A DNA stretch of 64,000 nt from Octopus vulgaris. Taxonomy: Eukaryota. The notes under the pieces are model-generated. The model was not told where the DNA came from, did no database searches, and saw only the letters and a list, made by a program, of their open reading frames with translations. Below, piece after piece: positions 18,737-36,369 of this stretch. The stretch covers positions 62,310,001 through 62,374,000 of the forward strand of contig OX597814.1 in the NCBI GenBank assembly GCA_951406725.2, in the 5' to 3' direction. The position numbers were made by a program, and so were the translations under genes. Numbering within the stretch: position 1 is the stretch's first letter; each line of letters starts with the position of its first letter.

Positions 18737-21700
18737 TCAGCGGCACGGGGGCAACGAGGTCCGGGGTACTTTGGGGATCGGGGTACTTTGGGGATCCAGG
18801 GTACTTTGGGGATCCGGGGTACTTAGAATGGGTAGGGGGTATGTGGAATTGCTGCAGAAAGCAGCCCGGGTCTTTGTAGTCACAGCATATCTCCAGAGAT
18901 CTCGGTCCTTCGCCATTGCCTCAGTGAGGCCCAATGCTCTGAGGTCATGCTTGACCACCTCATCCCATGTCTTCCTGGGTCTACCTCTCCCCCTGATACC
19001 TTCAACTGTTTGGGAGTGGCACTTCTTCACACATCTCTCTTCATCCATCCGCAGCACATGACCATACCATCGCAAGCGTCGCTCTTGCACACCACATCTG
19101 ATGCTTCTTATATCCAGCATTTCTCTCAGGATACTTACACTCTGTTTTGCGTGCACACTGACACTACACATCCAGCGGATCATGCTAGCTTCATTTCTTT
19201 CAAGTCTACGCATGTCTTCTGCAGTCACAGCCCATGTTTCATTACCGTGAAGCATGGCAGTTCGCACACATGCATCATACAATCTACCTTTTGCTCTGAG
19301 GGAGAGACCTTTTGTTGCCAGTAGGGGTAGGAGCTTTCTGAACTTTGCCCAGGCTATTCGTATTCTAGTGGTGATACTCTCTGTGCATCCACCTCCGCTA
19401 CTAACTTGGTCACCCAGGTAGCGGAAACTATCAACTACTTCTAGTTTCTCTCCCTGGAGTGTGATGGAATCTGTTTTCTGAGTGTCTGTTGTGTCTATTG
19501 TCCCTGTGCATCTGCCGCACATGAAAGCTATCTTATCTGTTAATTTCCCTTTAATGTTGCTGCACCTCTTATGTGTCCATAACTTACATTGGGTGCATCT
19601 TATGGAGTTTCTACCTGTACCTTTCCTACAGGTTGAGCAGGGCCACCTACCCGAGGGGATGTGTGCTGAGTACCTCTTGCTGCTTACTAATACTTTGGTC
19701 TTTGCTACATTTATTCTAAGGCCCTTTGATTCCAACCCTTGCTTCCACACCCGAAATTTCTCTTCTAGTTCCGGTAGTGATTCTGCTATGAGAGCTAGGT
19801 CATCGGCATAGAGGAGCTCCCAGGGGCATCCCGTTTTGAATTCCTCTGTTATTGCCTGAAGGACTATGATGAATAAAAGGGGACTGAGGGCTGAGTCCTG
19901 GTGCACACCTACTTCTACCCGGAATTCTTCACTATATTCGTTGCCAATCCTAACCTTGCTGACAGCCTCTCTGTATAGAGCCTGTACAGCCCTTATTAGC
20001 CATTCTTCAATCTCCAGTTTCCGCATCGACCACCAGATAAGGGAACGGGGAACCCTGTCAAAGGCTTTCTCCAAGTCTACAAAAGCTATGTAGAGGGGTT
20101 TATCTTTAGCTAGGTACTTCTCCTGCAGTTGTCGGACCAGGAATATAGCATCAGTGGTGCTTCTACCTGGTACAAAACCGAACTGCATTTCATCTAAACA
20201 AATTCTCTCCCTAATGAGATTGGTTATGACCTTCTCTGAGACCTTCATCACCTGGTCCAACAGTTTGATACCTCTGTAGTTATTTCTATCTAGAGCATCA
20301 CCCTTACCCTTGTAGCAGTTGACTATGGTGCTGCTGCACCAGTCATTGGGTATGACTCCATTGTGAACTACCTGGTTTACAATGCGGGTGACTATGGCAT
20401 AGCCCACATAGCCAGCTGTTTTAAGCATCTCAGCAGTGATTCCTGATAGGCCAGGGGCTTTGCCTGGTTTCATATCCTTAATTGCCTTATCTACAAGGGA
20501 GCTGTCTATTCGGATAGCTGGTCCCTCTACTGGGTCAACATTTGGCAGGCTCTCCTCCTCCCATTCATTCTCCTCATTCAGCAGTCTTTCATAATGGCTT
20601 CTCCAAGCCTCTTTCTTTTCACTAGTAGTAAAAGCAAGTGCCCCATCATCCATGCGGACACATTTCTCTCCTATAACATCGCTATTTTCTCTGACACACT
20701 GTCTGGCAATCCGAAATACTTCAGCTCTTTGATCCTCGCGACGCTGGACATTGGCAAACTTCTTCTTTTCTGCTACATCTTTGGCAATGTATACCTGCCG
20801 CCCAGCCTCCCTTTTGGCTATCTGGTACAGTTCCCTGCTGCCCCCATCCTTCCAGGCTTTCCAGGCCCGTCTCTTTTCACAGATGGCTTTATCTACTGCA
20901 CTATTCCACCACCACGTAATTCTAGGTCTGGAAGGGACTTTGCACCATCCACAGACTTGGTCTGTGACACTCAACAAGCTGTCCCGTAGGAATTCCCAGC
21001 TACCTTCTATGTCTGACGTCTGAAGCTCCTCCTCCCTCTCATCAAATTTCTTGATGAGTATGTCCCTAAATTTCTGACCATGCGAAGGGTTCTTTAGCCT
21101 CCAAATCCTTCTTTTCTGGATTGGTTTGTTTCTTGGAGTCCTTCTGGCCTCAAGCTTAAAGTCACTGATGATTAGTCTATGCTGAGGGATACATTCTTCA
21201 CCCGGAAGGGTCTTTGTATTCAAGAGCAACCCTGCATCCCGTTGTCTGGTGAGGATGAAGTCTATTTGGCTAGCGGAGTCTCCTGACTGATATGTTATAA
21301 GGTGGCAGACTGGCTTCTTGAAGTTAGTGTTGCAGATTGAAAGGTTACATGCATCACAGAATTCCAGCAGTCTAGTTCCCTCATCATTTCTGGTGCCAAT
21401 ACCATAGCCACCATGTACCCCAGTGAAGATACCCGATTCCCGCCCAACATGCCCATTAAAATCTCCACCTACAAAGATGAGGTCCTTGTTACTAGTCTTT
21501 GAAGTAGCCTGCAGAAGGGTATCATAAAAGTTGTCCTTCTGATCATTTGGTAGTCCCGCTTGTGGGGCATAGGCTGAGATAATCATAGCTGTGCCACTCT
21601 GTAGGACCAACCTGAGCTTAAGCACTCTATCACAAACCCTGACAACCTCTATGACCTTATCCACCCATTCCTCCGCAAGGAGAATGCCTACACCCCCTAC

Positions 21701-21856
21701 ACCTTCCGCGTTACCTTGCCAGTAGAGTTTGTATCTAAGTGCCTTGCCCGTGAGGACCCTAGCCGAAGCATCTCTCCATCTTACCTCTTGTATGCAGCAT
21801 ACATCAACCTGTCTTCTCTCTAGCATCTCTACAATCTCACTAGACTTGCCTGTCAA
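18737..21856 (-). CDS. RTE ORF: APE endonuclease + reverse transcriptase + C4HC3 finger
   Basis: CIQEVRW, SAYAP, GDFNGHVG, QIDFIL (APE); DLEKAFD, HQDSALSP, LLYADD (RT); no internal stop over 1039 codons. The true start is probably upstream (see findings); QG-to-QD in RT motif B may impair activity. Confidence 0.95.
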   Translation of the reverse strand: MTGKSSEIVEMLERRQVDVCCIQEVRWRDASARVLTGKALRYKLYWQGNAEGVGGVGILLAEEWVDKVIEVVRVCDRVLKLRLVLQSGTAMIISAYAPQAGLPNDQKDNFYDTLLQATSKTSNKDLIFVGGDFNGHVGRESGIFTGVHGGYGIGTRNDEGTRLLEFCDACNLSICNTNFKKPVCHLITYQSGDSASQIDFILTRQRDAGLLLNTKTLPGEECIPQHRLIISDFKLEARRTPRNKPIQKRRIWRLKNPSHGQKFRDILIKKFDEREEELQTSDIEGSWEFLRDSLLSVTDQVCGWCKVPSRPRITWWWNSAVDKAICEKRRAWKAWKDGGSRELYQIAKREAGRQVYIAKDVAEKKKFANVQRREDQRAEVFRIARQCVRENSDVIGEKCVRMDDGALAFTTSEKKEAWRSHYERLLNEENEWEEESLPNVDPVEGPAIRIDSSLVDKAIKDMKPGKAPGLSGITAEMLKTAGYVGYAIVTRIVNQVVHNGVIPNDWCSSTIVNCYKGKGDALDRNNYRGIKLLDQVMKVSEKVITNLIRERICLDEMQFGFVPGRSTTDAIFLVRQLQEKYLAKDKPLYIAFVDLEKAFDRVPRSLIWWSMRKLEIEEWLIRAVQALYREAVSKVRIGNEYSEEFRVEVGVHQDSALSPLLFIIVLQAITEEFKTGCPWELLYADDLALIAESLPELEEKFRVWKQGLESKGLRINVAKTKVLVSSKRYSAHIPSGRWPCSTCRKGTGRNSIRCTQCKLWTHKRCSNIKGKLTDKIAFMCGRCTGTIDTTDTQKTDSITLQGEKLEVVDSFRYLGDQVSSGGGCTESITTRIRIAWAKFRKLLPLLATKGLSLRAKGRLYDACVRTAMLHGNETWAVTAEDMRRLERNEASMIRWMCSVSVHAKQSVSILREMLDIRSIRCGVQERRLRWYGHVLRMDEERCVKKCHSQTVEGIRGRGRPRKTWDEVVKHDLRALGLTEAMAKDRDLWRYAVTTKTRAAFCSNSTYPLPILSTPDPQSTLDPQSTPIPKVPRTSLPPCR

Positions 21857-22383
21857 TGTACCAACATTGATAGTGCCAACTCTGAAAACTGGGAAGGAGA
21901 TGTGGGGGGGACGGGGGGATTCGGCGCCTGAGAAGAGGAGGGTTGTTGTGGTGGTGATAGTTTTCGTGGTATTTTTCTTTTGATCTCTCTTCCAACCTGA
22001 CCACGCCGTGGGCAGGAGCTGGTGTTAGCAGTGGACATTCGTTATCGTCACTGAGTAACGTAATTAGGTAGAGGAAAGAAATACAGATATTCTAGAGTTG
22101 AGTTGGGGAGGGGGGTCCAGTTGAGGCGGGTAATATAGGGGAGCAACCAGTGGGGAAGGTTGGGGTAAGGAGGAACGATGGCAGGAAGGGTTGGTGTAGG
22201 TTCGTAAGAAATAAAAACGTAGGATATTACGAGGCGGGAGGGTACTAAAAGGGGATGGTCAGATTGAGGCAGTGTCAGGAGGAAGCGTAAGATCGGTGGG
22301 CAGTTGATGAGCTATGGCGCTAGCAGCTTGTCTTTTCACAGTGAAAGCATATGAGGAGAAGGGGTAGTGGGGCGAGGAGGAGG

Positions 22384-22603
22384 GAGTAGGGCGTATCCGG
22401 TGTAGATGAGTAGGGCGTATCCGGTGTAGATGGTGAGAACAGGGTATACTGGTATTGGTGGTGGGGGTGAGAACAGTGTTCACTGGTATTGGTGGTGGCG
22501 GTGAGAACAGTGTTCACCGGTATTGGTGGTGGGGGTGAGAACAGTGTTCACCGGTATTGGTGGTGGGGGTGAGAACAGTGTTCATCGGTATTGGTGGTGG
22601 GGG
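22384..22603. repeat. RTE 5' UTR minisatellites: 24 bp x2 and 34 bp x5
   Basis: gagtagggcgtatccggtgtagat x2; ggtgagaacagtgttcaccggtattggtggtggg x5. Confidence 0.92.
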
Positions 22604-22617
22604 TGGGGGGCGGGCGC

Positions 22618-23230
22618 ACCGCCGATGGCGGAAAGATGGGAAAAGATGGGATTACGGCTTGAGGTAGCCTAAGGTTAAATTTCGTAGAGAGAGAGATAGG
22701 AAAGATAAATCAAGTTATGGCGAAGGCTTGAAAGTAGCCTAAAAGGTTAAATTTTCGTAGTGAGTGAGATGGGTAAGACGAATCAAGTTATCAATGTATG
22801 AATAAACGTAGTAACAACGAATAAAAATAGTAAGATAAATTTTTAAGAACTTGCTGCGGGCATCGACCGGGAGTTGAAATTGAAGAAGAAAGTAAGTTGA
22901 ATTGGGAATTTAAATTGCAGAATCGTAATGGTAATGGCGATTTTCAAGTTTTAGCATAAGAAGAAGAAGAGGAGGAAAGACCGCCGATGGCGGAAAGATG
23001 GGAAAAGATGGGATTACGGCTTGAGGTAGCCTAAGGTTAAATTTCGTAGAGAGAGAGATAGGAAAGATAAATCAAGTTATGGCGAAGGCTTGAAAGTAGC
23101 CTAAAAGGTTAAATTTTCGTAGTGAGTGAGATGGGTAAGACGAATCAAGTTATCAATGTATGAATAAACGTAGTAACAACGAATAAAAATAGTAAGATAA
23201 ATTTTTAAGAACTTGCTGCGGGCATCGACC
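22618..23230. repeat. 251-bp direct repeat, period 362 bp, at the RTE 5' end
   Basis: 22618-22868 and 22980-23230 look identical by eye. Confidence 0.93.
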
Positions 23231-23265
23231 ATATATATATATATATATACACATAAACAATTGCA

Positions 23266-23490
23266 GTGTGGAAGGTGTTTATAAGCCATTTAAAAAAACA
23301 CAGAAACTGTTAGATTCACTTCAACATTTAAATTTAATTTGCCAAAATATTTTCATATTTTTGAGACCACGACCTGATTACTGACTTGTCTCAAAGCAAC
23401 AAAAATATTTTGGCAAATTAAATTCAAATGATGAAGTGAATCTAACAGTTTTTTGTGTGTTTTTAAATGGCTTATAAACACTTTCCACGC
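23266..23490. repeat. Imperfect inverted repeat, arms about 100 bp
   Basis: 23266-23367 is the approximate reverse complement of 23388-23490; the unit is flanked by (TA)n. Confidence 0.88.
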
Positions 23491-23547
23491 TTTTCGTTTC
23501 AGTACATGCTCTCAGATCAGGTCACTTGCTATGTAAGTACATCTCCG

Positions 23548-23586
<39 letters not shown>

Positions 23587-23629
23587 CATATATATATATA
23601 CATATATATGTACATATATATCTATATAA

Positions 23630-23673
<44 letters not shown>

Positions 23674-23801
23674 CTGATTTCACTGCAGAGGGAACTTTTG
23701 AACACACTGTATATACATATATACACACACACATATATACATATACATACTATATGCACACACATATATACATACTATATGCACACATATATATATGTGG
23801 A

Positions 23802-24100
23802 GGCGCACTGGCCCAGTGGTTAGGGCAGCGGATTCACGGTCGTAGGATTGCGGTTTTGATTCCCAGACCGGGCATTGTGAGTGTTTATTGAGTGAAAACA
23901 TCGAAAGCACCACGAGGCTCCGGCAGGGGCTGGTGGCGATCCCTGCTGTACTCTTTCGCCACAACTTTCTCTTACTCTTCTGTTGACCTGCTCGCTTAGC
24001 CAGCGGGGTGGTGTCATTTGAAGGCTAAAACAATGCGAAGCGCATTGTGACCAGCAATGTGTAGCAACATCTGATAGCCTGGTCGGTCACGGTGATCACG

Positions 24101-24105
<5 letters not shown>
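23802..24105 (+). mobile_element. tRNA-derived SINE, family C
   Basis: A box tggcccagtgg, B-box-like ggttttgattcc, short repeated tail, embedded in TA repeats. Confidence 0.85.
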
Positions 24106-24154
<49 letters not shown>

Positions 24155-24235
24155 TGCATGCATATAAACAGTGATGACGATGATGATACACATACAAAGA
24201 TATACGTATACACACATGCTCACATATATATATAT

Positions 24236-27200
24236 ATAGTTAATCCAAACAAGAAAACACAAAAAGACAAAAAAACACAACAACGCGAGGACGTGGAACA
24301 AATAAAGTATTATTGGACGCTCAGGAAAGAAGGGAAGAAGGAGGGTTTAATGTTTTGAGTGGAGCTCTTCGTCGGAAACATAAGAGAAGGAAGGGTTCCG
24401 AGAAGGGAAGACAGAGGAAAAAAAATCGCCAGCGGTACTCACGAGGTCACATATTGGAAGACCGGAAGTAGAAAGGTGGAAGAATAATGTTTTTTAAAGA
24501 CAGGAGAGTTTTCAAAGACAGTAGGTAGTATGTCAAAGACAAGGAAAGTGAGAGGGGGAATGTGTGTGGATGTGTGCGTGTGCGGAGGTCTGCGTGTGTG
24601 TGTATGTGTGCAATGATGACACGTGTGTGTGTGTGTATGTGTGTAGGGCGAACAACTGGCTAGTAGCTGGCCAGTGTAAGAATGAGTGGTGTTTTTTGTG
24701 TCCAGCCACAGGTCAAAACAAAGAGGTATGTGTGTGTGCGTGTATGTATATGTATCGTGTGTGTTTTGTTTGTAGTGTGTGTGTGTGTGTGTATGTGTGT
24801 GTTTGTGTGTGTATGCGTAGAGTTTGGGTGTGTGGCGAGTAACTGTGCTTAACTTAGTGTATGTGTGCGTGTGTGCTTGTACGTGCATGTGTGTATATAT
24901 ATGTATAATTGTGTGCCGTGTGTATGGGATGTATGTGTGGGTTCATTTGTGTGTGTGTGTGTGTGTATGTATGTGTGTGTGTGTAAGCGTATATGGATGT
25001 ATATGCGTGTATCCGTGGGGTTGTGAGTTTTGGGTGTGTGCATTGGTGTGCATGCGTATGTGCGCATGTTTTTGTGTGCGTATGTGTGTGTGTGTCTGGT
25101 TATATGTGTGTATGTATGTATGTGCGCGTGTAGGTATATATTGTGTGTATGTATATGTGTCGGTGTGTATGTGAATTTGTGTGTTTGTATGTGTGTGTGT
25201 GCACGTGTATTGTATATATATGTAAATGTGTGTGCGTGTGTGTGTACATGCGTGCGAGTGAATGTATGTATATATGTGCGTGTGTGTACAAATGTAGAGG
25301 TTTATATGTGTGTTTATATGTGTGTATATATATGTATGCAAGCTCACACTTTATAATTGAAAGATTGATGGAAAAAAAAATTGGTGTGGGTGTATGTGAA
25401 TCCACAGGCACACACACACACACACTGACGTACGCCTGCAATACAGCCAACCCCATATGCATGTATGTGTGTGTGTGTGTATGTATGTATGTGTGTATGT
25501 ATGTCTGTATGTGTGTGTGTGTGTATGTATGTATGTGTGTGTACGTATGTATGTGTGTGTGTGTGAATGTATACGTGTGGGAGTTTTTCTGGAGTTGTGT
25601 GAGCATAATGTACATGCGTGTGCATGCGTGCGGTTACGTGCGTGTATGTGTGTGTGTGTCTCTGCTAGGTGTTTGTAAGAGTGCGTATCTGTATGAGTAT
25701 TGTTTGTTGGTGTGTGTGCACGGGCATGTGTGTGGGGGTGTGTGGGGGTGTATAGGTGTGGAAGTATGTGTGCGTACATGTGCATTTTGGATGTATGTGT
25801 GTGGTGTGTTGGAAGTAGGTGTGTTCGTGGATGCGTGAGTATGTGTGTGTGTGTGTTTCTGTATAAGGACAAAATATAAAAAAAAAGGTTGCTAGTGGGG
25901 AGAGGTGGAGTGCAGTCACTAAGAGGAGGAGGCTGTGTTGAGTCCGTGTGGGGTATTGGTCTGTAGAGGGAAAATGAATCGTTGCTCCAAGTGGAGCCTG
26001 GATTGTGGAGGACCGTTGTGTGGGGTGAGACCAAGCAGTGATGTCATCAGGGGAATGGCTGGCCGAGCGGAAGTGACGTGCGACAGGAGAATTGGACCGT
26101 AGACGAACATCCCTTAGATGTTCGGCGAATTGGTCTGACAACCGGCGTCCCATCTGTCCTATATACAGCATTCCGCAGAGGTTGCATTTAATGCAGTATA
26201 TGAGACCAGACGAAGTGCACGTAAAAGAATGTCTGATACATACAGTTCGCTGGTTGGAACCGGTGACAGCAGTGGTGTTGGTGATGAAGGGGCAGGTGTT
26301 GCAGCGGGATCTGGAGCAAGGGAAGGATCCCTGTGGGGCTGAGGGGGAAGAAGAGAGAGTGCTATGGACCAGGAGGTCGCGTAGATTCTAGGCTCATTTG
26401 AAGGAGGACAGGGGTGGGTTGGGGAAAATGGGATTGAGCTGGAGACGGCGGTAGGCATGTAGTATCTTCTGACGAAGGGGTAGAGTAGAGGGGTGGAAAA
26501 GGAGGGGAAAGAGGGTTGGGGTGGGTGGGTGAGAAGAAGGAGAAAGGGCGGTGGTGCGGTCGATGCGGCGGGTGAGGGCGTTCAAGACCAGGGTAGGTGG
26601 GTATCCTTGATGCCTGAACAGGCGGGCCAGGTATTGAGACTGGGTCTCGAAATCCTGGTCGCGGCTGCACAAGCGTCGGAGGTGGAGGAACTGGGAGTAG
26701 GCGATGGTCCGTTTGGTGTGGAAGGGATGGGAGGAGGAGAAGTTGAGATAGAGGTGGGAATCCGTGGGTTTGAAGAAGGCGGAGGTGGTGAGAGAGTGGG
26801 AGGGGTGGTCAATGTTGAGAGAGATATCAAGGAAGTTAACAGAGGTATTGGAGATTGGTGGAAGTGAATTGTAGAGAGGGGTGGAAGTTAGAGAGGAAAG
26901 AGATGAAGTGGCAGAGTTGTTCGCGGGAAAGGGAGGTGGCGCCTATGCAGTCATCTATGTAGTGGCCGTATAGTTCCGGGGTCGGCCTGGAGAATTGGGA
27001 GAATTCTTGGGCCTCAATGTAGCCAACAAAGAGATTGGCGAAATTGGGGCCCATTCTCGTTCCCATCGTGACCCCAGACAACTATTGGTACGTTTCCCCG
27101 GCGAACGTGAAACAGTTGAGGGTGAGGACGAGCTCTGCCAGGTGGAGAAGGGTGGGGGTGCTGGGGGTGGGGTCGGGACGACGGTCGAGGAAGTGTTGGA

Positions 27201-27515
27201 GGGCTATGAGACCGTCGTTGTGGGGAATTACCGTATACAGGGATTTTATGTCTAAGGTGAAGAGGAGGTGTGAGGGGCTGGAAGGGAAGGAAAAGGAATT
27301 GAAGAGACGGAGGGCGTGTTTGGTGTCATGTATGTGGGATGGGAGGGCTGCGACTAAGGGGGACAGGATGCGGTCGAGGTATAAGGAAAGGCGTTCAGTG
27401 GGGCAATTACAGGCGGTAACAATGGGGCGGCCAGGGTTATTGGGTTTATGAATTTTGGGAAGGAAATAGATGGTGGAGGTGCGGGGTGTGCGGACGATGA
27501 GGTTGGTGGCGGTGG
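24236..27515 (-). mobile_element. 5'-truncated Penelope-like element 1 (Neptune-like by resemblance), decayed RT + GIY-YIG
   Basis: PKIHKPNNPGRPIV, DIKSLYT, GVTMGTRMGPNFANLFVG, YIDD; CTSSGLIYCIKC..C..LYIGQMGRRL...FAEH; stops and frameshifts; probable pLTR at 24236-24560. Confidence 0.9.
24560..25860. repeat. Degenerate TG-rich low-complexity block
   Basis: Directly visible, between the PLE-1 ORF end and its probable pLTR. Confidence 0.92.
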
Positions 27516-28302
27516 GGGGTTTCTACAATTACATTTCTCTCCGGGGCCTTTCCTAGTTTTATTTCTATTGTTACCTTTACTTTTTGTGTCTCCAGTTCTA
27601 GACAAGTTTCCCTCTTTCATTCCATCAAATCTTCCCTTATTACATGGGTTCGATAGACCCGGTAAAGGCAGACTGTTTGTACCATTGGCATTAGGTGTTA
27701 CAAAATTATTATACGCAGTTCCTTGGTCATCCTCAAAAGAACTTTTCCAGCTAATTCGCCCCAGCAAGCTTGCTTCTATTGATTGATGCAATAATCGAAG
27801 CAAAGTTAGGCATTACAGAGTAAGAGAACTTGATCGTTGACTTGTTGCAAATGCTATAGTATTTATGATTCTTTGGGAAGTTCTCCTTCAGAATTCTAAA
27901 AAACATTTTTGGTAAGTTCCTTACTCTAAGGGAGAAAGGGGAAGCGAACCAAACAACTTCCCTTATTCTAGACCGTGAACCTCCGTTTTGTTTAACTCCT
28001 TGTCAAAATTATTAATTTTCTTATACCTGTACCTATTGCGAGTATCCCTAAACACATTACTACTCAAAGGCTTTCTATTATTGCAGTTGGGGGGGGGGTT
28101 CCCTGCATTAGTATTTGTGACGTGCTTAAATGGCAAACCAGCCATTTTGTTTTTGAGTCTAGTATTAAGGATATAAAGTATTTTAGATTTGAAACCACTT
28201 AATCTTAGGGCATTATTATACACCGGTGCATGCTGTTCAAAAATCTTTTCATTCGCAGGTAAATTAGATATTCTAGTTGAAATTGCAGTAACGATGCTGT
28301 CT
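27516..28302 (-). mobile_element. Inverted upstream segment of Penelope-like element 2
   Basis: Minus strand reads ISTRISNL..YNNALRLSGF, VVWFASPFS..FPKNHKY..TIKFSYSVMPNF, then CNCRNP (PLE thumb/linker, frameshifted). Confidence 0.85.
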
Positions 28303-29762
28303 ATTATTGCATCAATCAATAGAAGCAAGCTTGCTGGGGCGAATTAGCTGGAAAAGTTCTTTTGAGGATGACCAAGGAACTGCGTATAATAATTTTGTAA
28401 CACCTAATGCCAATGGTACAAACAGTCTGCCTTTACCGGGTCTATCGAACCCATGTAATAAGGGAAGATTTGATGGAATGAAAGAGGGAAACTTGTCTAG
28501 AACTGGAGACACAAAAAGTAAAGGTAACAATAGAAATAAAACTAGGAAAGGCCCTGGAAAGAAATGTAATTGTAGAAACCCCGAATTATGTCCTTTAGAT
28601 GGTTCCTGTCTAGTTACTAACGTTGTATATAAATGTGTAGTCAAGGACGAGGATAAGTTAAATAAATTTTATATAGGTAGCATGGTAGATTTTAAGGCTA
28701 GATATAGATCACATATGAGCTCATTTTCTAACGATAAATACTGTAATTCAGCAACACTTGCATCCCATATACACAATTTGAAGAAAAATAATAAGAATTA
28801 TTATCTAGAATGGTCCATTATCTCTAAAACCCCAAATTTCAAGGGAATATTAACAAGTGTAAGCTGTGCATAAGGGAATCCCTTACCATCCTTAGGTGTT
28901 ATGGACCGCACACTCTGAATAAATTTACTAACGTGATTCCTTTTTGCATCCATAAATTTTCTTCTACATTCTTAAAAGTGTATAAGAATAAAATAAGTTG
29001 TAGAAAATAAATAATTTAGTTCTTACAGGGTTTGAAACCACGGAGGTTCAATTTAATTTAATTTAATTTAACTTAATTTAATTTAATACACCCTATTAAA
29101 AGAATTTTTTTTTACTGATTTATTTTTCTACTGCTTTAAAAAAATTTTTTTACTGCTTTAATTCTTTCTTTTGGGCTCGTCTGAGCATGACTTCTTCAAT
29201 AAGAAAGCACACAATATTGTGTTAAGCCTGGTACGCGATGATGTCTGTCTCTCTATTTTTTTCCCCTGACGAAGGAGTTATTATTGTGATGCACCCTAGT
29301 GCTTTAAACACAATAATATACCCCTGAAATGGCCATAGGGAATGTAAATATGGCTTCCTCTTATTTGAAAAGTAAATTTATAAGATTTTCTAAACGATGA
29401 ACTTTTATTTTATTTTACATTATATATTATATATTTTTTATATGCTTCCTATATATATATATATATATTTTTATATACCTATATATTTATATATTACTTT
29501 ATACTATATTTTCACGTATTTACTTTCTAGGTGTTGTAATGGTTTTTTAAAAAAATATATTTTTCTTGATTGCTAAAGTATTAGCTTTTAACCGTGATGA
29601 ACTGTATTCACACATTTTTTCTCGCACTTTCTTATATGCTTGTACAGATGAGTTACATTCCATCTTCCGTGATGTTTAAATGTATATTCTATGATTAAAT
29701 GTTTGAGTTATGAAATGTTATGTGGATGACCTTGCATTTGTTTGTTCTATAACCTTAGTTTG
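28303..29762 (+). mobile_element. 3' segment of Penelope-like element 2 (GIY-YIG + pLTR; Nematis-like by resemblance)
   Basis: CNCR....CPLDGSCL..NVVYKC..FYIGS...FKARYRSH, then a hammerhead-bearing UTR ending at (TA)n; 28303-28582 is the inverted copy of 27516-27795. Confidence 0.88.
29261..29342 (+). ncRNA. Type I hammerhead ribozyme in the PLE-2 pLTR
   Basis: Stem I ttccc/gggaa, core CTGACGA, long stem II, GAAA, palindromic stem III ATGGCCAT, AUA cleavage triplet. Confidence 0.8.
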
Positions 29763-30017
29763 ATATATATATATATATATATGAAACTATTAAAAGTGAA
29801 ACAATATAAATGTGAAACTATTAAAAGTGAAACAATATAAAAGTGAAACTATAACTGTTACTCCATTGAAGGTTTCACTTTTATTCTTGCATTGTTTTAA
29901 TCCAAACTAATTACATGTTGATACTCCTGGGGTCTCGTAGTATTACCATATAAAATTTAATTTAATTTGGTTGTGCTGTTTGAGAATGCATTGGGAACAG
30001 ACAGAGATACAAAGGAT

Positions 30018-30059
<42 letters not shown>

Positions 30060-30128
30060 GGAGTAAACACATAAATGTGAAACAAGGTGGAAAAAAGAGT
30101 ACTCAAATACCAGTGGTAGAGTAATATG

Positions 30129-30293
30129 CTTTATTTAAAGCAGCAGAAAATTCAACAAAATCTGTTACTCTGAGTTTCTCGTTGCCGTTCATCAGACAGT
30201 TTTTGCTAGAATCTAGCAAAAACTGTCTGATGAACGGCAACGAGAAACTCAGAGTAACAGATTTTGTTGAATTTTCTGCTGCTTTAAATAAAG
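30129..30293. repeat. Perfect hairpin, 82-bp arms with a 1-nt loop
   Basis: 30129-30210 is the exact reverse complement of 30212-30293 by eye. Confidence 0.95.
30223..30260 (+). ncRNA. Minimal hammerhead motif (mirror copy at 30162-30199 on the minus strand)
   Basis: ctgt-CTGATGA-a cg gcaa cg a-GAAA-ctc a gag-TA-acag; stem II closed by an A-A mismatch. Confidence 0.7.
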
Positions 30294-30339
30294 TATATAT
30301 ATATATATATATATAGATAGATATAGATAGATAGAGAGA

Positions 30340-30620
30340 TGAAAGAGTACTAGTAGTTTTACTAGGTTTAGTTTAATTCATTGTGATTCTGTTCCCTTTT
30401 CAAAAAGAGCCTTCGGTATATGTGAAGATACTCAATTTTTATTGTTATATAGATTTATTGCTACAAGATTGTGTGGTCAAAGTTTGCCATGTTCAGATTC
30501 AGATTACTTTTCATCCATCTATAGTTAATGAAAGAGTACCAGTAATTTTACTGGGTTTAATATAATTCAGTGTGATTCTGTTCCCTTTTGAAGAAGGGCC
30601 TTCTGTATTTGTAAGAAAAT
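30340..30620. repeat. Old tandem duplication, unit about 190 bp; the first half of copy 1 lies at 17150-17235
   Basis: tttattgctacaagatt..aagtttgccatgttcagatt at both 17172 and 30454; tgaaagagtac..gtgattctgttccctttt at both 30340 and 30529. Confidence 0.85.
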
Positions 30621-32116
30621 TGTCATTACTTTACTATTTCTAATTTATTGTTGTTAAAAGTATTTGACCTTGATATTAATTTTCTTTTGTTTTTTTTTTT
30701 GTCTTTACTGTTCTAAATTTTGCATTCTGGGTTAAGAAAGTTTACTTTGTGTATAGTCTATCACTTATGTTTTTGAATTTTACGGCTTAGTCATTTTTAT
30801 GAAGTGCTTCTGATACTGGTGGGAGAAGAGGAAACTCTCAAATTCAATGTACTAAACCTTATTGCAAAAAAATTAATTCTTTATTTGTGGTTCCCATGCT
30901 TGGTAACTCCTCCCCCCACACATACACACACATATATTTTGTTACCTGTTATGTCACTAACTTGCAGTTTTTCAAACTATACCGACTAGGTTTTTTGGGA
31001 CAGTGATGAATTTGTTGTCTCTAGGGAGACAACAATATTAATAACACATGCACTGATTCAATTCCACTCCTCCATTATTAGTTAATTGGTTAAATACCTA
31101 TCCCCCTAATTAATTGATCATTTGTTTAACTTGTTAGTTAAACAGTCAATCGTTTGTTTTGTTTTGTTTTTATTTTGTTTGTCAGACTTATTTTGTTGCC
31201 ATTCACAACTTTTTCAGTGATTCCCATTTCATTATAGGGGCTGTGTTTGCCTGAGTCCTCGTTGCTTGTATGTGTGTAGAATATGGTAGGGGTATATGAA
31301 TATGGTGTGTGTCTGTGTGTGAGATTATATGTGTGCATATATGTATGTCTGTGTCTGTATCCCTGTATCTGTGTGCGTGCATGAGTGTGTACATATATGC
31401 TTGTGTGTGGTGTGTGTGTGTGTGTGCACGTATGTGTACTTCTGCATCTATGTGCATGTTTGTATGTGCATGTGTGTGTGTGTGCCTGTGTATGTCTGTG
31501 TGCTCATGTGTATGTATGTGTGTCTGTACATGTGTGTGTTTATGTGCAAATACATGATGTGTATGTTGGTTTGTGTATGGTTGTGTGTTCCTCTGTCCTT
31601 GTATGTATGTGTTTATGTGTGAATGCTTGTGTGAGTGTCTGCATGTGCATGTGCCTGTGCCTATTTACGTGTGTGTATGTGTGCCCCTTTCGTATGCATG
31701 GTACATGTATGCCTGTGCATGTGTGTGGGGGCTGTGTGTGGATGTATGTGCATATCTATCTGTACTACTTATTTATCTACTTACCTATTTATCTACCTGC
31801 CTGTCTCCCTATATACTTACCTCCCTACTTGGTTAACTAACTAGCATTCTACATAACTAACCTTACCACCTAAATACAATCCTACTTATTTACCTACATG
31901 ACTGCCTGCCTACCTATCTACTTATCCAGCCACCCATCTACCTACCTACCTACTTTATGATTCTACCTATGTACCTACCTGTCTATTCAAATATACCTGT
32001 GTATTTACTCTGCACAGGTGGTATCTATGGTATTGAAGTATCTCTACCTCCTACATGTATTTTCTATTCAGTATGAGTAATGTTTCATTTATAAGGACAC
32101 ATTCTTATAGTTATGT

Positions 32117-32463
32117 CAAAGGTTCTCAACCATTTTTTATCCATGGACCCCTTTGATAACTATTTTATCCTGGTGGATCCTCATAGCTATTCAATGTTTA
32201 AAAACTAGTTTTATAGAAACTTCTTTCAAAATTCCTATTTTGTTTTTCACACATTCACTTGTGTAGGTTGAACTATGTAAAATGCTAGAGAAAGAAATGT
32301 AACTGTTTCTTGCAGTACATACCAATACATACATCGAAAGCAAAATTTTTTAGGGTCTCTTAAAGAACTTTTGTGGATCCCCAGCTTACTATTTAGTTGT
32401 GTGGACCCCCAAAAAATTATATGGATTCTTAGGGGCCATATGGATCCTAGTTGAGAAACATTG
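32117..32463. mobile_element. hAT-like MITE
   Basis: Termini caaaggttctcaac / gttgagaaacattg and repeated tggaccc(c) subterminal motifs; TSD not recognisable. Confidence 0.5.
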
Positions 32464-32469
32464 GTCTTA

Positions 32470-33085
32470 ATAACGAGTCCCTTGGGTGTTTGGACAACAT
32501 GCAGATGTTAGTTTCCCATCATTATACTCTCTCTAATGTTCATTCAGCCTTTCTGCTAAACTCGTATAGGTCTCTCCAATGTATGCTATGCTCCTGTCCT
32601 TACAAACTCCTTTCATGCATCTTATGCTGTAGACTACATTCCTAGTCTTACACTTAATACTGGGATTAAAGGTACATACCACACAGTTCTTACCAGTGTA
32701 TGTGGTATTGTCAAAGGGGTATGTCCTACATAATTGGGATCTGATGGACCTCCCTGGTTTCTGAATCTTAATGTTGAGTTTGATGTCCTTCAAAGCCTTC
32801 TTAAACCTACGTGCTAATTCCCCATGCAGTGTGGCCTCTACAGACATCAGTCCTTGATATTTATCAGCCTTATATTTATCAGCTTTGTTACAAACCCTCT
32901 GTATACTGTTCCAGTGTTTACTTTGGTATCTAGGATGGGTACCACTGACATTATTACAGATTATGTTATCTAATTTCTTTCTGGCACCCCTGTATACTTG
33001 AACCCTATCTTTCTGGTTGTATCCAGAGAACTGCATGCTGTGCATGAAGTTCTGTGCATGTCTCCATGTTTCATAGGGTTCACAC
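32470..33085 (-). mobile_element. Decayed Penelope-like element 3 fragment (thumb + GIY-YIG)
   Basis: MQFSGY....R, CKTRNVVYSIRC...AYIGET..SLAERLNEH. Confidence 0.75.
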
Positions 33086-35349
33086 AGACAGGCATGAGTG
33101 CACATACATGCAAATACCCACATACACACACAGGCATATGTGCACACACATACATACACTCATTCAAGCACTCACATAGACACACACACACCCAAATGGA
33201 CACAGAAATACACAATCATACACAAACCTACACCATGTATATGCATGTGCACTCATATACAGACATAAGCACACACTGACATACATAAGGCATACACATA
33301 CTATGCATACACATGCACAAATACACACACACACACACACAAGCATACATGCATAAACACCCCCCCTCACATGCACAGGTGCATACATGTATGGATGCAG
33401 AGTATACACACACACAGACACATCCATGCACATGACACAAGCATGCACACATGGATGCAAAAATACAGACATGTACAAAAGCATACACATACATACACTC
33501 TCACACATGCAAACACAGGTATATACACATTCACACAGTAACACATACACATACATACACATGCAGATAATCACACACACACACATTCAAGCAACAGGAT
33601 CTTAGACAGGCAAATACAGCCCCTATAACAAAATGGGAGAGAAGTCACTGAAAAGGTTGTGAATGGCAATGAAAGAACTGACCCCCCCCCCCCCTAAAAC
33701 CCTCCCCCCTCCAAACAATTGACTGTTTAATCAACAAGTTAAACAAACTATCAACTAGTTTGATAGATATTTAACCTGTTGCCTAATAATAAAGGTGTGG
33801 AATTGAGCCAGTGTGTGTGTTGGTGTGATGACTCCCTAGAGACAACAAAATTTGTTTCAACACATAAATTCACATAAAGAATCCTGAAAACCAAATACAA
33901 AAATTAAATAGTTCTTACTTTAATTATTCTGTTGCTTAAGGTGGGAAACTGACAGGATTGTTAGCACACTGGGCAAAATACTTAACGGCATTTCGTTTAT
34001 ATTCACATCCTGAGTTCCAATGCTGCCTGGGTCAACTTTGGCTTTTATATTTTTGGGGTCGATAAAAAGAGCACTGGAGTTGGTGTAATTTACTTACCCA
34101 CTCCTTTGAAATTGCTGGCCTTGTGCCAAAATTGGAAACAAGTTATTCTGTTATTTACTCTGGCTACCTCAGTTACTTTATCCCATACTCTGCCTATTCT
34201 AACAACTCCAGCATTGATACCCATTCAGAAGAACTTTTAATTGAGTTCCTTACTGTAAGAATTCTGGCTGAAGCTTTTCTCTGTCTTACCGTTTGTACAA
34301 TAAGCATTGTACACATCTATTCACTTCTAATCTTTACAATCTCTCCAGGTCTACCTTTCACTGTGTTAACTCAGAGTAAAAAGTTTCTGGTGGTTTTGGG
34401 GTTGTTTGTGTCTATTTTCTGCATCTAAAAAGAAGTGAGTTGGTGCAATCATTTGATGACACTCACACATAGCCAGATTTTCCCAAATGGTCACTTCCAC
34501 TACCATGTAAGGCCCTGTATATTCAATTACGATATTTTTGCTGATTTCACTGTCATCTTTTTCTTGTGCTTTTTGTACTCTTTCTATCAGAAACCATTTT
34601 ACAGCATAGACTGAGAACTATTGTTCCACCTGCTCTAGAAAAACTGCCTGGCAGGACTGGTGTGTACCTTCTACACTCTATCAAGGTTTTTCCAGAATTG
34701 CTTCTCTCCAGCAAGAGTTGATTTCACTGCAGCTTGTATGTCTCTGCTATTCAGATTTTTATTCAAGGGTGACATATCTAGGAGATATGTTACCTTCTCT
34801 GTTGAGTCATTGTCTCTTCTGAGCAGGAAAAAAAGTAATGTAAATAATAATTATATGCATAGTTTAAACTAAGAACACTTGCTTGCTATGTCTTTACTTG
34901 AGAAATTGGGAATAATATATGACATACATAAGTTGCTCTTTTACATGTGTAAATGAACTTTTAGGCAAAGCTGCCAAAAGGTGGTGCGAGAAGAGGAGAG
35001 AGAAAGAGATTATTTATATGATTAGTTATGTTTGCATAATGCTGAATAAAGAGATGTCATATATATAATTTATAACAGTTTAAGGAGATCATTAATATTA
35101 ATACAAGTTATGGTAATGATAATTACTTGCATAGCTTAAACTTAGCATTCTCGTTGCAGCTTTCTTCAGAGTTTGGCTATAATATGTCACATTCACTCTG
35201 TCTCTCTCAATGTCACTTGAGAAATGGCATTGCATTAGATCTGTCTGTATTCAATCCCACTCTATCATTCTTTATTGCTAACCATCTTTCTCTCTGCCTC
35301 TCCCATTACTCTTTCTTTTATCAATCATTACGGATACCTTTATTTTTTA

Positions 35350-35728
35350 TCTGTTACAGTCATTAGACTGCGGTCATGCTGGGGCACTTCCTTGAAGAAC
35401 TTTTAGTGGAATGAATTGATTCCAGAACTTATTTTTTTATAAAGTCTGGTACTTATTCTGTTAGCCTCTTTTTGCTGAACTGCAATGTTACGGGGATGTA
35501 AACCAACCTACACCAGTTGTCAAGTAGTGGTAGGAGCACAAAGACACACACACACACAAACAAACAAACATAAGACAGGCTTCTTTCAGTTTCCATGTAG
35601 CAAATCCACTCGCAAGGCTTTGGTCAACTTGAGGCAATAGAAGACACTTGCCCAAGGTGCCATGCAGTGGGACTGAATCCAAAACCATGTGATTGGGAAG
35701 CAAGCTTCTTAACACACAGCTATGCCTG
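35350..35728 (-). mobile_element. SINE family A
   Basis: Same consensus as 58250-58634; other copies near 42975-43530(-), 44935-45180(-), 46610-46970(-), 53505-53800(+). Confidence 0.8.
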
Positions 35729-36369
35729 CATCTATGTATTACTCCTTTTCCTTCACTGTCTTCCTCTGCACTCCCTTTCTCACATCACTCTTTCCCTTCC
35801 AGTACTCTCTCTTCTACCATCTGACCCCCCTCTTATTTCCCTTTTCCCCCATCATATCAGTTATGCTGTTTTTATTGAACCTTCATATCAACAACCAGCA
35901 AGGCACTATCTGTTACCCTCTTACTTCCTTTAATCCTACATATTAACCTTTTCTTTCTATCTCTCTGGTCCTCTTTCATTACTCTCCCTATTAACACTTT
36001 CTTACTCTTGACTTCTTTCATTATACTTTCTTCTAGCTACTGGGGATAGGACAACCTTTTGGTAGTGGTGGGCAAATGAAGAGAGACAATGTAGGATAGT
36101 AAGGATTATTTAGTCTTGCCATTCTTTCTATTACTGAAGTCATGATAAAGTGCAGCTGGTACAAGTGGTTGGCAAGAGGAAATGTATCCAGCCATGGAAA
36201 ACATGTTGGTAATGAATGTGGAAACCATCCTATTCATTTCTGCATTGAAAAGTGGATGTAAAACTGATGATGTTGATAATAATGATAACAATAATGTGAT
36301 GATGAGCATGCACGCATGCATGCGCACACACATACACACACACACACGTGTGTATGTCAACAAATGAGA

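What the first reader, a model, noticed from the sequence alone, without database searches (positions are those of the whole stretch)
24236..29762. Chimera of two different Penelope-like families with both 3' ends facing outward
Seen: on the minus strand PLE-2 (28302 to 27516) runs straight into the RT of unrelated PLE-1 at a shared C-run, with no spacer or TSD. PLE-2 then restarts on the + strand at 28303, duplicating 280 bp as an inverted repeat (2 mismatches seen). Only the outer ends touch (TA)n. Known: PLEs make inverted, truncated insertions. Inference: one event with both target ends primed and a template switch between RNAs of two PLE clades, implying cross-family RT use.
Basis: partly seen in the sequence, partly recalled or inferred. 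Interest (0 to 1): 0.7.

Follow-up and report, generated by a model that had tools for sequence, protein, structure and literature searches.

The report
Two Penelope retrotransposons fused after insertion
Two unrelated Penelope-type jumping genes are joined end to end here, but the left one carries several times more decay, so they likely landed separately in the same TA repeat and were fused later by a small deletion rather than being copied together in one event.

Summary
The anatomy is real. A 5'-truncated Neptune-type element (minus strand, 27519 to about 24238) is joined through 4 shared G to an inverted piece of a Hydra-type element (28302 to 27516). The Hydra element restarts on the plus strand at 28303, duplicating 280 bp with 2 mismatches.

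The one-event reading is not favoured. Against family contigs from two public runs, 36 of the 40 listed differences fall in the Neptune part (1616 bp) and 4 in the Hydra arm (787 bp). About 13 would be expected at equal age after CpG correction (P about 0.004). The Neptune changes look neutral. Caveats: 120 rows were hidden, indels do not show the gap, and no orthologous allele or bridging read was found.

Most likely a normal two-armed Hydra insertion landed in the TA tract beside an older Neptune copy, and a microhomology deletion fused them (0.45). Twin-priming-like insertion at the older copy is 0.27. A cross-clade template switch from a decayed Neptune RNA remains possible (0.17). The scan noted two-armed Penelope insertions elsewhere in this genome; none of the notes shown described a Neptune-Hydra junction.

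The parts
24224..24237 (.). (TA)n tract at the 3' end of PLE-1
   Evidence: sequence
24238..27519 (-). PLE-1: 5'-truncated Neptune-type Penelope-like element (RT from about residue 352, thumb, CX4CxxC linker, GIY-YIG with CxxC, long (CA)-rich 3' UTR). Decayed: 3 stops and 2 frameshifts
   Evidence: tblastn 65-67% identity over the RT block to P0001/P0005/P0012; stops at 27084, 26396, 26390; indels at 26855 and 26035; resembles Neptune1_Ap rows in PMC8557442 supplement, compared by eye
24345..24380 (-). degenerate hammerhead-like motif near the PLE-1 3' end (core letters altered)
   Evidence: read by eye; fold not better than shuffles, z -0.68; no Rfam hammerhead match
27516..27519 (.). 4-nt microhomology (GGGG on the top strand) shared by PLE-1 and PLE-2; junction 1
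   Evidence: junction contexts; PLE-1 continuation from loose ends
27516..27795 (-). PLE-2 left arm, duplicated part (thumb end to start of the CxCX5C linker)
27796..28302 (-). PLE-2 left arm, unique 507-bp part (RT thumb region); the natural upstream continuation of the right arm and the unpaired spacer of the inverted repeat
   Evidence: tblastn to P0125 residues 441-614; a multi-copy contig in run X3 runs from 28593 through 28337 on into 27763 (tables 5 and 8)
28302..28303 (.). inversion junction (junction 2); a short microhomology is possible but not shown
   Evidence: protein similarity to P0125 extends to 28310
28303..29762 (+). PLE-2 right arm: Hydra-type element from thumb end through CxCX5C linker, GIY-YIG without CCHH cysteines, 3' UTR, to its 3' end
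   Evidence: family depth falls after 29764
29263..29340 (+). predicted hammerhead ribozyme with a long stem II and short palindromic stem III
   Evidence: core motifs read by eye; long hairpin in the fold, z -1.94, 7 of 200 shuffles as good; no Rfam match
29763..29782 (.). (TA)n tract at the 3' end of PLE-2

Best explanation
A Neptune-type copy and a Hydra-type copy are fused at a 4-nt microhomology, likely because the Hydra element inserted later into the TA tract beside the older Neptune copy and a deletion then joined them. Shown: the parts, the junctions, and more decay in the Neptune part. Inferred step 1: an old Neptune copy sat in a TA tract with its 5' side to the right. [quoted passage not shown] The right arm is 1.46 kb; the left arm would have been about 1.97 kb, its extra 507 bp forming the unpaired spacer. 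Inferred step 3: this long inverted repeat was resolved, during integration or later, by a microhomology-mediated deletion at GGGG. It would have removed the outer 1.18 kb of the left arm, the TA tract and the 5' part of the Neptune copy. No cross-family reverse transcription is needed.
For: Age: 36 of 40 listed differences lie in PLE-1 (1616 bp) and 4 in the PLE-2 arm (787 bp) (Fisher P=0.001; CpG- and base-adjusted expectation 13.0, P=0.004). Of 33 PLE-1 changes in the ORF, 22 are non-synonymous or stops, spread 12/8/13 over codon positions, and 15 are CpG decay, as expected after insertion. Arms differ at 2 of 280 against about 9 expected (P=0.005). All-row bounds: PLE-1 at least 5.4-6.5%, PLE-2 at most 4.0-4.1%. 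The inner junction (left arm longer, unpaired spacer) has the same shape as the two-armed stub at 30058-30298 in this window. Purified anole Poseidon cuts and extends both strands and starts at fixed sites that are not homologous to the target (PMC11167929, parts 1-2 read). [quoted passage not shown] Ten TA runs lie in 23500-30400, and several separate distinct repeats, so side-by-side insertion is the local habit.
Against: No intermediate allele or orthologous locus was seen. 120 of 160 difference rows were hidden and the ranking rule is not stated; all shown rows have at least 93.7% share in one run. With 7 PLE-2 rows instead of 4, P rises to 0.054. Non-CpG changes alone give Fisher P=0.08. 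Indels do not show the age gap: 2 frameshifts in about 1.5 kb of PLE-1 ORF and 3 in about 1.2 kb of PLE-2 ORF. The nearest multi-copy PLE-2 contigs differ by 14 of 732 letters (1.9%), close to the PLE-1 lower bound of 2.2%. The arm clock may be reset by conversion. The anatomy alone cannot separate this route from internal priming at the same 4 G.
Confidence: 0.45

Rival explanations
1. Twin-priming-like later insertion. PLE-2 primed normally at the right TA tract. The left DNA end, trimmed or broken inside the older PLE-1 and ending in GGGG, annealed to CCCC inside PLE-2 RNA and primed the inverted arm directly (or a fold-back cDNA was joined there by microhomology). The PLE-1 5' part was lost as a target-site deletion.
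For: The geometry equals the L1 class of 5' inversion with internal duplication (17% of 1703 inverted somatic L1; 10.1101/2024.08.27.596794, passages). About 70% of 5'-inverted L1 have 2-5 bp microhomology (PMC2912911, passages). Both arms share one extra base against family contigs, as expected from one RNA source. The age evidence fits equally. An Adineta Pen2 insertion has no TSD and a microhomology junction.
Against: A 280-bp duplication is far above the L1 median of 22 bp. The one PLE studied in vitro starts at fixed, non-homologous sites. Homology-primed internal starts were not seen for PLEs in the papers read.
Confidence: 0.27
2. One event. The left TA end was primed on a Neptune RNA. 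After 3.3 kb the cDNA end (GGGG) moved to Hydra RNA at CCCC and went on for 787 nt, and it met a second cDNA primed on Hydra RNA from the right TA end. To fit the decay, the Neptune RNA would have come from an old, already damaged copy.
For: Both 3' ends face outward on TA; PLE-2 arm and PLE-1 are co-oriented and joined by microhomology without spacer. L1 makes two-RNA insertions by template switch or end joining (nine cases, PMC11702581, passages). Both PLE-2 arms share a frameshift before the endonuclease, so the PLE-2 RNA may itself have been defective and copied in trans. Indel counts do not separate the ages.
Against: PLE-1 carries about three times the near-private substitutions expected at equal age, with a neutral pattern. 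No cross-mobilisation between PLE types was found in Adineta (PMC3846280; this concerned EN+ and EN- types). A 4-nt match is cheap: 32 GGGG in the PLE-1 top strand and 12 CCCC in the PLE-2 sense strand. No second Neptune-Hydra junction was found in the joints shown or in the scan notes shown.
Confidence: 0.17
3. Assembly or sequencing artefact joining two loci at 27516, or a fold-back read artefact.
For: No contig or read shown bridged the junction. The best run held only 0.48 of the sampled words. Several indels lie in homopolymers.
Against: Only 4 nt overlap, too little for an overlap join (inference). A fold-back could not supply the unique 507-bp natural upstream part. The arms differ at 2 sites, one a CpG-type change. 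Tables were cut, and the runs are probably other individuals or species.
Confidence: 0.05

Closest known systems
Hydra clade PLEs (Craig et al. 2021, PMC8557442; e.g. Hydra-1_Obim)
   Same: PLE-2 has the CxCX5C linker, no CCHH cysteines, CxxC and CxH around the conserved E and N, a hammerhead-like motif and a TA target. Its closest full-length relative (P0125) has DKT and RWR.
   Different: Apparently not Hydra-1_Obim itself (a linker peptide and an 18-nt motif were absent from the supplement). Stem II of the hammerhead is long. The left arm starts internally, against another PLE.
Neptune clade PLEs (Neptune1_Ap-like)
   Same: PLE-1 has the CX4CxxC linker and CxxC in the GIY-YIG core; its RT and its relatives closely resemble the Neptune1_Ap rows (by eye).
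   Different: 5'-truncated and decayed, with about 1.3 kb of (CA)-rich 3' UTR; no inverted pLTR left at its 5' side.
Nested and microhomology-joined Penelope copies of Adineta vaga (PMC3846280)
   Same: One Penelope family inserted in another; insertion without TSD joined by microhomology; microhomology-mediated deletions.
   Different: There the secondary Pen2a insertion has a 9-bp TSD within Pen3; here the 5' part of the older element is missing and the two belong to different clades.
L1 twin priming with internal duplication, and two-RNA L1 insertions (PMC2912911; 10.1101/2024.08.27.596794; PMC11702581)
   Same: Inverted 5' segment, overlap at the inversion, short microhomology at the outer junction; chimeras of two RNAs exist.
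   Different: No poly(A) and no detectable TSD; a much longer duplication; a different class of RT, whose known initiation does not use target homology.

Membership tests
Neptune clade (PLE-1) | CX2-5CxxC linker before a C-terminal GIY-YIG | tested here: met
   CSRSRCNTC in the translation; CX4CxxC in 22 of 26 relatives of at least 600 aa
Neptune clade (PLE-1) | [quoted passage not shown] | tested here: met
   IYCIKCNLCGMLYIG with later histidines
Neptune clade (PLE-1) | RT groups with Neptune, not Nematis, in a tree | not tested
   No tree built; by-eye match to Neptune1_Ap rows and poor match to Nematis rows
Neptune clade (PLE-1) | hammerhead in the pLTR | tested here: inconclusive
   degenerate motif; z -0.68; no Rfam hammerhead
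Hydra clade (PLE-2) | CxCX5C linker | tested here: met
   CNCRNPELC; motif in 125 of 150 best relatives; definition from PMC8557442 section 11
Hydra clade (PLE-2) | CCHH absent; CxxC and CxH flank the conserved E and N | tested here: met
   no CxxC in the GIY-YIG core; CKLC and CIH in the next frame
Hydra clade (PLE-2) | RWK and DKT motifs in the N-terminal RT | not testable with these tools
   That part is absent from the window; the closest full-length relative P0125 shows RWR and SDKT
Hydra clade (PLE-2) | hammerhead near the 3' end and (TA)n target | tested here: met
   core motifs and long stem at 29263-29340 (prediction only, no Rfam match); TA at 29763
Twin-primed insertion (L1 definition) | inverted 5' segment with deletion or duplication at the inversion and microhomology at the outer junction | tested here: met
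   280-bp duplication, 4-nt microhomology
Twin-primed insertion (L1 definition) | target-site duplication around the insert | tested here: not met
   left flank of PLE-2 is PLE-1 RT, right flank is TA; no PLE-1 remainder in the window
Two-RNA chimeric insertion (template switch) | co-oriented segments joined by microhomology without spacer | tested here: met
Two-RNA chimeric insertion (template switch) | both segments of equal age | tested here: not met
   36 of 1616 against 4 of 787, expected 13; partial data; indels do not show the gap
Two-RNA chimeric insertion (template switch) | empty allele lacking both parts, or an identifiable donor for each RNA | not testable with these tools
   no whole genome held; right flank is itself a repeat

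The most novel reading that the evidence does not exclude
A Penelope-like RT primed on TA with RNA from a decayed Neptune copy and jumped at 4 nt of homology onto RNA of a Hydra-clade element (RTs about 22% identical), while the other target end was primed on the same defective Hydra RNA. This would be a cross-clade template switch and a route for RT/endonuclease exchange between PLE clades.
Probability: 0.17. Interest if true: 0.6.

Novelty: new member of a known kind. Interest (0 to 1): 0.27.

Why it matters
On the favoured reading it is an ordinary pile-up of TA-targeting retroelements with one fusion. It is a useful example that two-armed Penelope insertions can erode neighbouring DNA, and that '3' ends outward on TA' does not prove one event. 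If the cross-clade switch were true, it would show that PLE RTs accept RNA of distant clades. That would give a mechanism for the endonuclease exchanges between clades that Craig et al. 2021 propose (PMC8557442, passages). The frameshift shared by both arms is a small hint that defective Hydra RNAs are copied in trans.

Tried and rejected
Whole genome: none held, so no donor search, no junction survey and no proper subfamily consensus.

Pfam: none of the 8 fragments from the two elements matched; of 10 proteins scanned only the nearby LINE ORF did. Rfam gave no hammerhead in 20000-36000. ARAGORN found nothing in 23500-30600.

Protein searches: a PLE-2 search among longer proteins found nothing among 231 candidates. 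PLE-1 searches found relatives of at most 72% and 66% identity, so no same-family copy or donor.

Reads: raw-read runs X15 and X16 laid only 3 and 4 reads and were useless. No listed contig bridged 27516 or reached an orthologous flank; tables were cut, so this is no evidence of absence. The right flank is a repeat, so the empty-site test failed.

Pattern scans: the junction in metagenome contigs gave 0; the PLE-1 3' end gave 0 in metagenome and viral contigs.

Scan notes: by sequence, near, and by words gave nothing.

Rejected: simple nested insertion with TSD (no PLE-1 remainder to the right); the joint 27763-28337 in run X3 as a second chimera (it is the natural PLE-2 sequence seen through the duplication); low-depth difference rows in the duplicated part (inflated because contigs split between the two arms; not counted).

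Literature: six searches showed no paper reporting a junction between two PLE clades made in one event. Most subscription papers are not in the library, and bioRxiv supplements were not seen.
Full report
Setting. No whole genome was held. The DNA is microsatellite-rich animal sequence. Earlier scan notes on this genome call it octopus (not checked by me). Evidence comes from the window, protein relatives, coded public runs and papers.

The 280-bp inverted duplication (28303-28582 against 27795-27516) has 2 mismatches. At 27516-27519 four G are shared: PLE-2 naturally has 4 at this point, and PLE-1 family contigs run on with G-rich PLE-1 sequence past 27519. There is no spacer. TA runs flank the outer ends, and none lies at the two inner junctions. 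tblastn with three PLE-1 relatives finds no other PLE-1 piece in the window.

What the parts are. PLE-1 aligns at 65-67% over its RT block to 705-904-aa proteins, from residue 352 of 889 onward. It has a CX4CxxC linker and CxxC in the GIY-YIG core, and resembles the Neptune1_Ap rows of the Craig et al. alignment (by eye). PLE-2 aligns to residues 441-800 of an 806-aa protein with DKT and RWR motifs. It has the CxCX5C linker and lacks the CCHH cysteines, which define the Hydra clade (PMC8557442 section 11). Full-length relatives of the two are 22% identical. The 507 bp between the arms are the natural upstream continuation of the right arm. So the PLE-2 part is two head-to-head arms with an unpaired spacer, the left arm cut short at an internal point.

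Age test. I laid 25900-28302 on Logan contigs of runs X1 and X2 (raw runs X15 and X16 gave 3 and 4 reads and no information). Of 160 difference rows, 40 were shown, all with at least 93.7% share in one run. 36 fall in PLE-1 (1616 bp, 2.2%) and 4 in PLE-2 (787 bp, 0.5%); Fisher P=0.001. PLE-1 is richer in CpG, so I applied class-specific rates: 13.0 rows are expected in PLE-2 at equal age, P=0.004. Of the 33 PLE-1 rows classed in the ORF (3 rows beside a frameshift left out), 11 are synonymous, 20 non-synonymous and 2 stops, at codon positions 12/8/13, and 15 are CpG decay. This is the pattern of neutral decay. The arms differ at 2 of 280 sites against 9.2 expected at the PLE-1 rate, P=0.005. 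Totals bound PLE-1 at 5.4-6.5% or more and PLE-2 at 4.0-4.1% or less. At 0.0036 substitutions per site per million years (PMC13282606, passages; assumes octopus), that is roughly 6 million years or more for PLE-1 and 1-5 for PLE-2.

Limits of the age test. The ranking rule is not stated and 120 rows were hidden. With 7 PLE-2 rows, P is 0.054. Non-CpG changes alone give P=0.08. The nearest multi-copy PLE-2 contigs differ by 14 of 732 letters, 1.9%, near the PLE-1 lower bound, although that is not like for like. Frameshifts do not show the gap: 2 in PLE-1, 3 in PLE-2. The runs are probably other individuals or species (best share of words 0.48). Both arms share an extra base against family contigs. 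So either the PLE-2 RNA was already defective or the arms were homogenised; the first keeps trans-copying in play and the second weakens the arm clock.

Mechanism. Three routes give the same final sequence. (C) A standard two-armed Hydra insertion in the TA beside an older Neptune copy, then a microhomology deletion of the outer 1.18 kb of the left arm, the TA and the Neptune 5' part. (B) Twin-priming-like insertion, the left end priming inside PLE-2 RNA at 4 nt of homology. (A) One event with a switch between the two RNAs. I favour C (0.45). The one purified PLE extends both strands from fixed, non-homologous start sites (PMC11167929). A two-armed stub lies at 30058-30298. An earlier, unchecked note reports fixed arm ends in 73 of 82 two-armed copies of another family. 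Nested Penelopes and microhomology deletions are described in Adineta (PMC3846280). B (0.27) fits the L1 class of inversion with internal duplication, but 280 bp is far above the L1 median of 22 bp. A (0.17) needs an old, damaged Neptune RNA as template; L1 does make two-RNA insertions (PMC11702581). Two separate insertions (B plus C) total about 0.72. An artefact is unlikely (0.05), but no bridging read was seen. Shown: parts, junctions, decay counts. Inferred: order of events, the lost sequence, all priming steps.

Papers, as seen. PMC8557442: passages, section 11 and supplement searches. PMC11167929: parts 1-2 of 4. PMC3846280: passages and Discussion. PMC2912911, PMC11702581, PMC13282606, 10.1101/2024.08.27.596794 and 10.64898/2026.07.22.740005: passages only. 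bioRxiv supplements were not seen. Six searches showed no report of a one-event junction between two PLE clades; the library lacks most subscription papers.

Verdict. A real Neptune-Hydra fusion built from known element types and most likely by known processes: a new member of a known kind, interest 0.27. The cross-clade switch stays open at 0.17 and can be settled by a donor search and a junction survey in the whole genome.

Noticed in passing
window 27759 and 28344 (same site in both arms): Both PLE-2 arms carry one extra base against family contigs, which shifts the frame before the endonuclease. The source RNA was likely defective and copied in trans, or the arms were homogenised.
   Followed up: partly
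window 30058-30298: Short two-armed stub between TA runs: a 175-bp stretch that is 98% self-complementary plus a one-sided extension, with a hammerhead-like motif resembling the Hydra-2_Amil end shown.
   Followed up: partly
window 29263-29340: Predicted hammerhead with a very long stem II and palindromic stem III, missed by Rfam; this part and the last 170 bp have about ten times the family depth of the ORF, suggesting many solo 3' ends.
   Followed up: partly
window 29785-30017: Another repeat between TA runs; it lacks about 36 bp at 29888 against its family and has a 31-bp tandem duplication at its left end.
   Followed up: no
window 18737-22024 (-): Stop-free frame of 1095 aa with APE endonuclease, RT and an internal PHD finger; looks like a young RTE-type LINE (label recalled).
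   Followed up: no
window 32533-33159 (-): 208-aa frame that by eye resembles the thumb, Cys linker and GIY-YIG start of a third Penelope-like family; no Pfam hit.
   Followed up: no
window 24560-25860: About 1.3 kb of degenerate (TG)n-like sequence inside the PLE-1 3' UTR; not checked whether it is part of the family or grew in place.
   Followed up: no
window 23797-24103: SINE-like element (label by eye; ARAGORN found no tRNA) ending in a 48-nt TA run just left of the finding.
   Followed up: no
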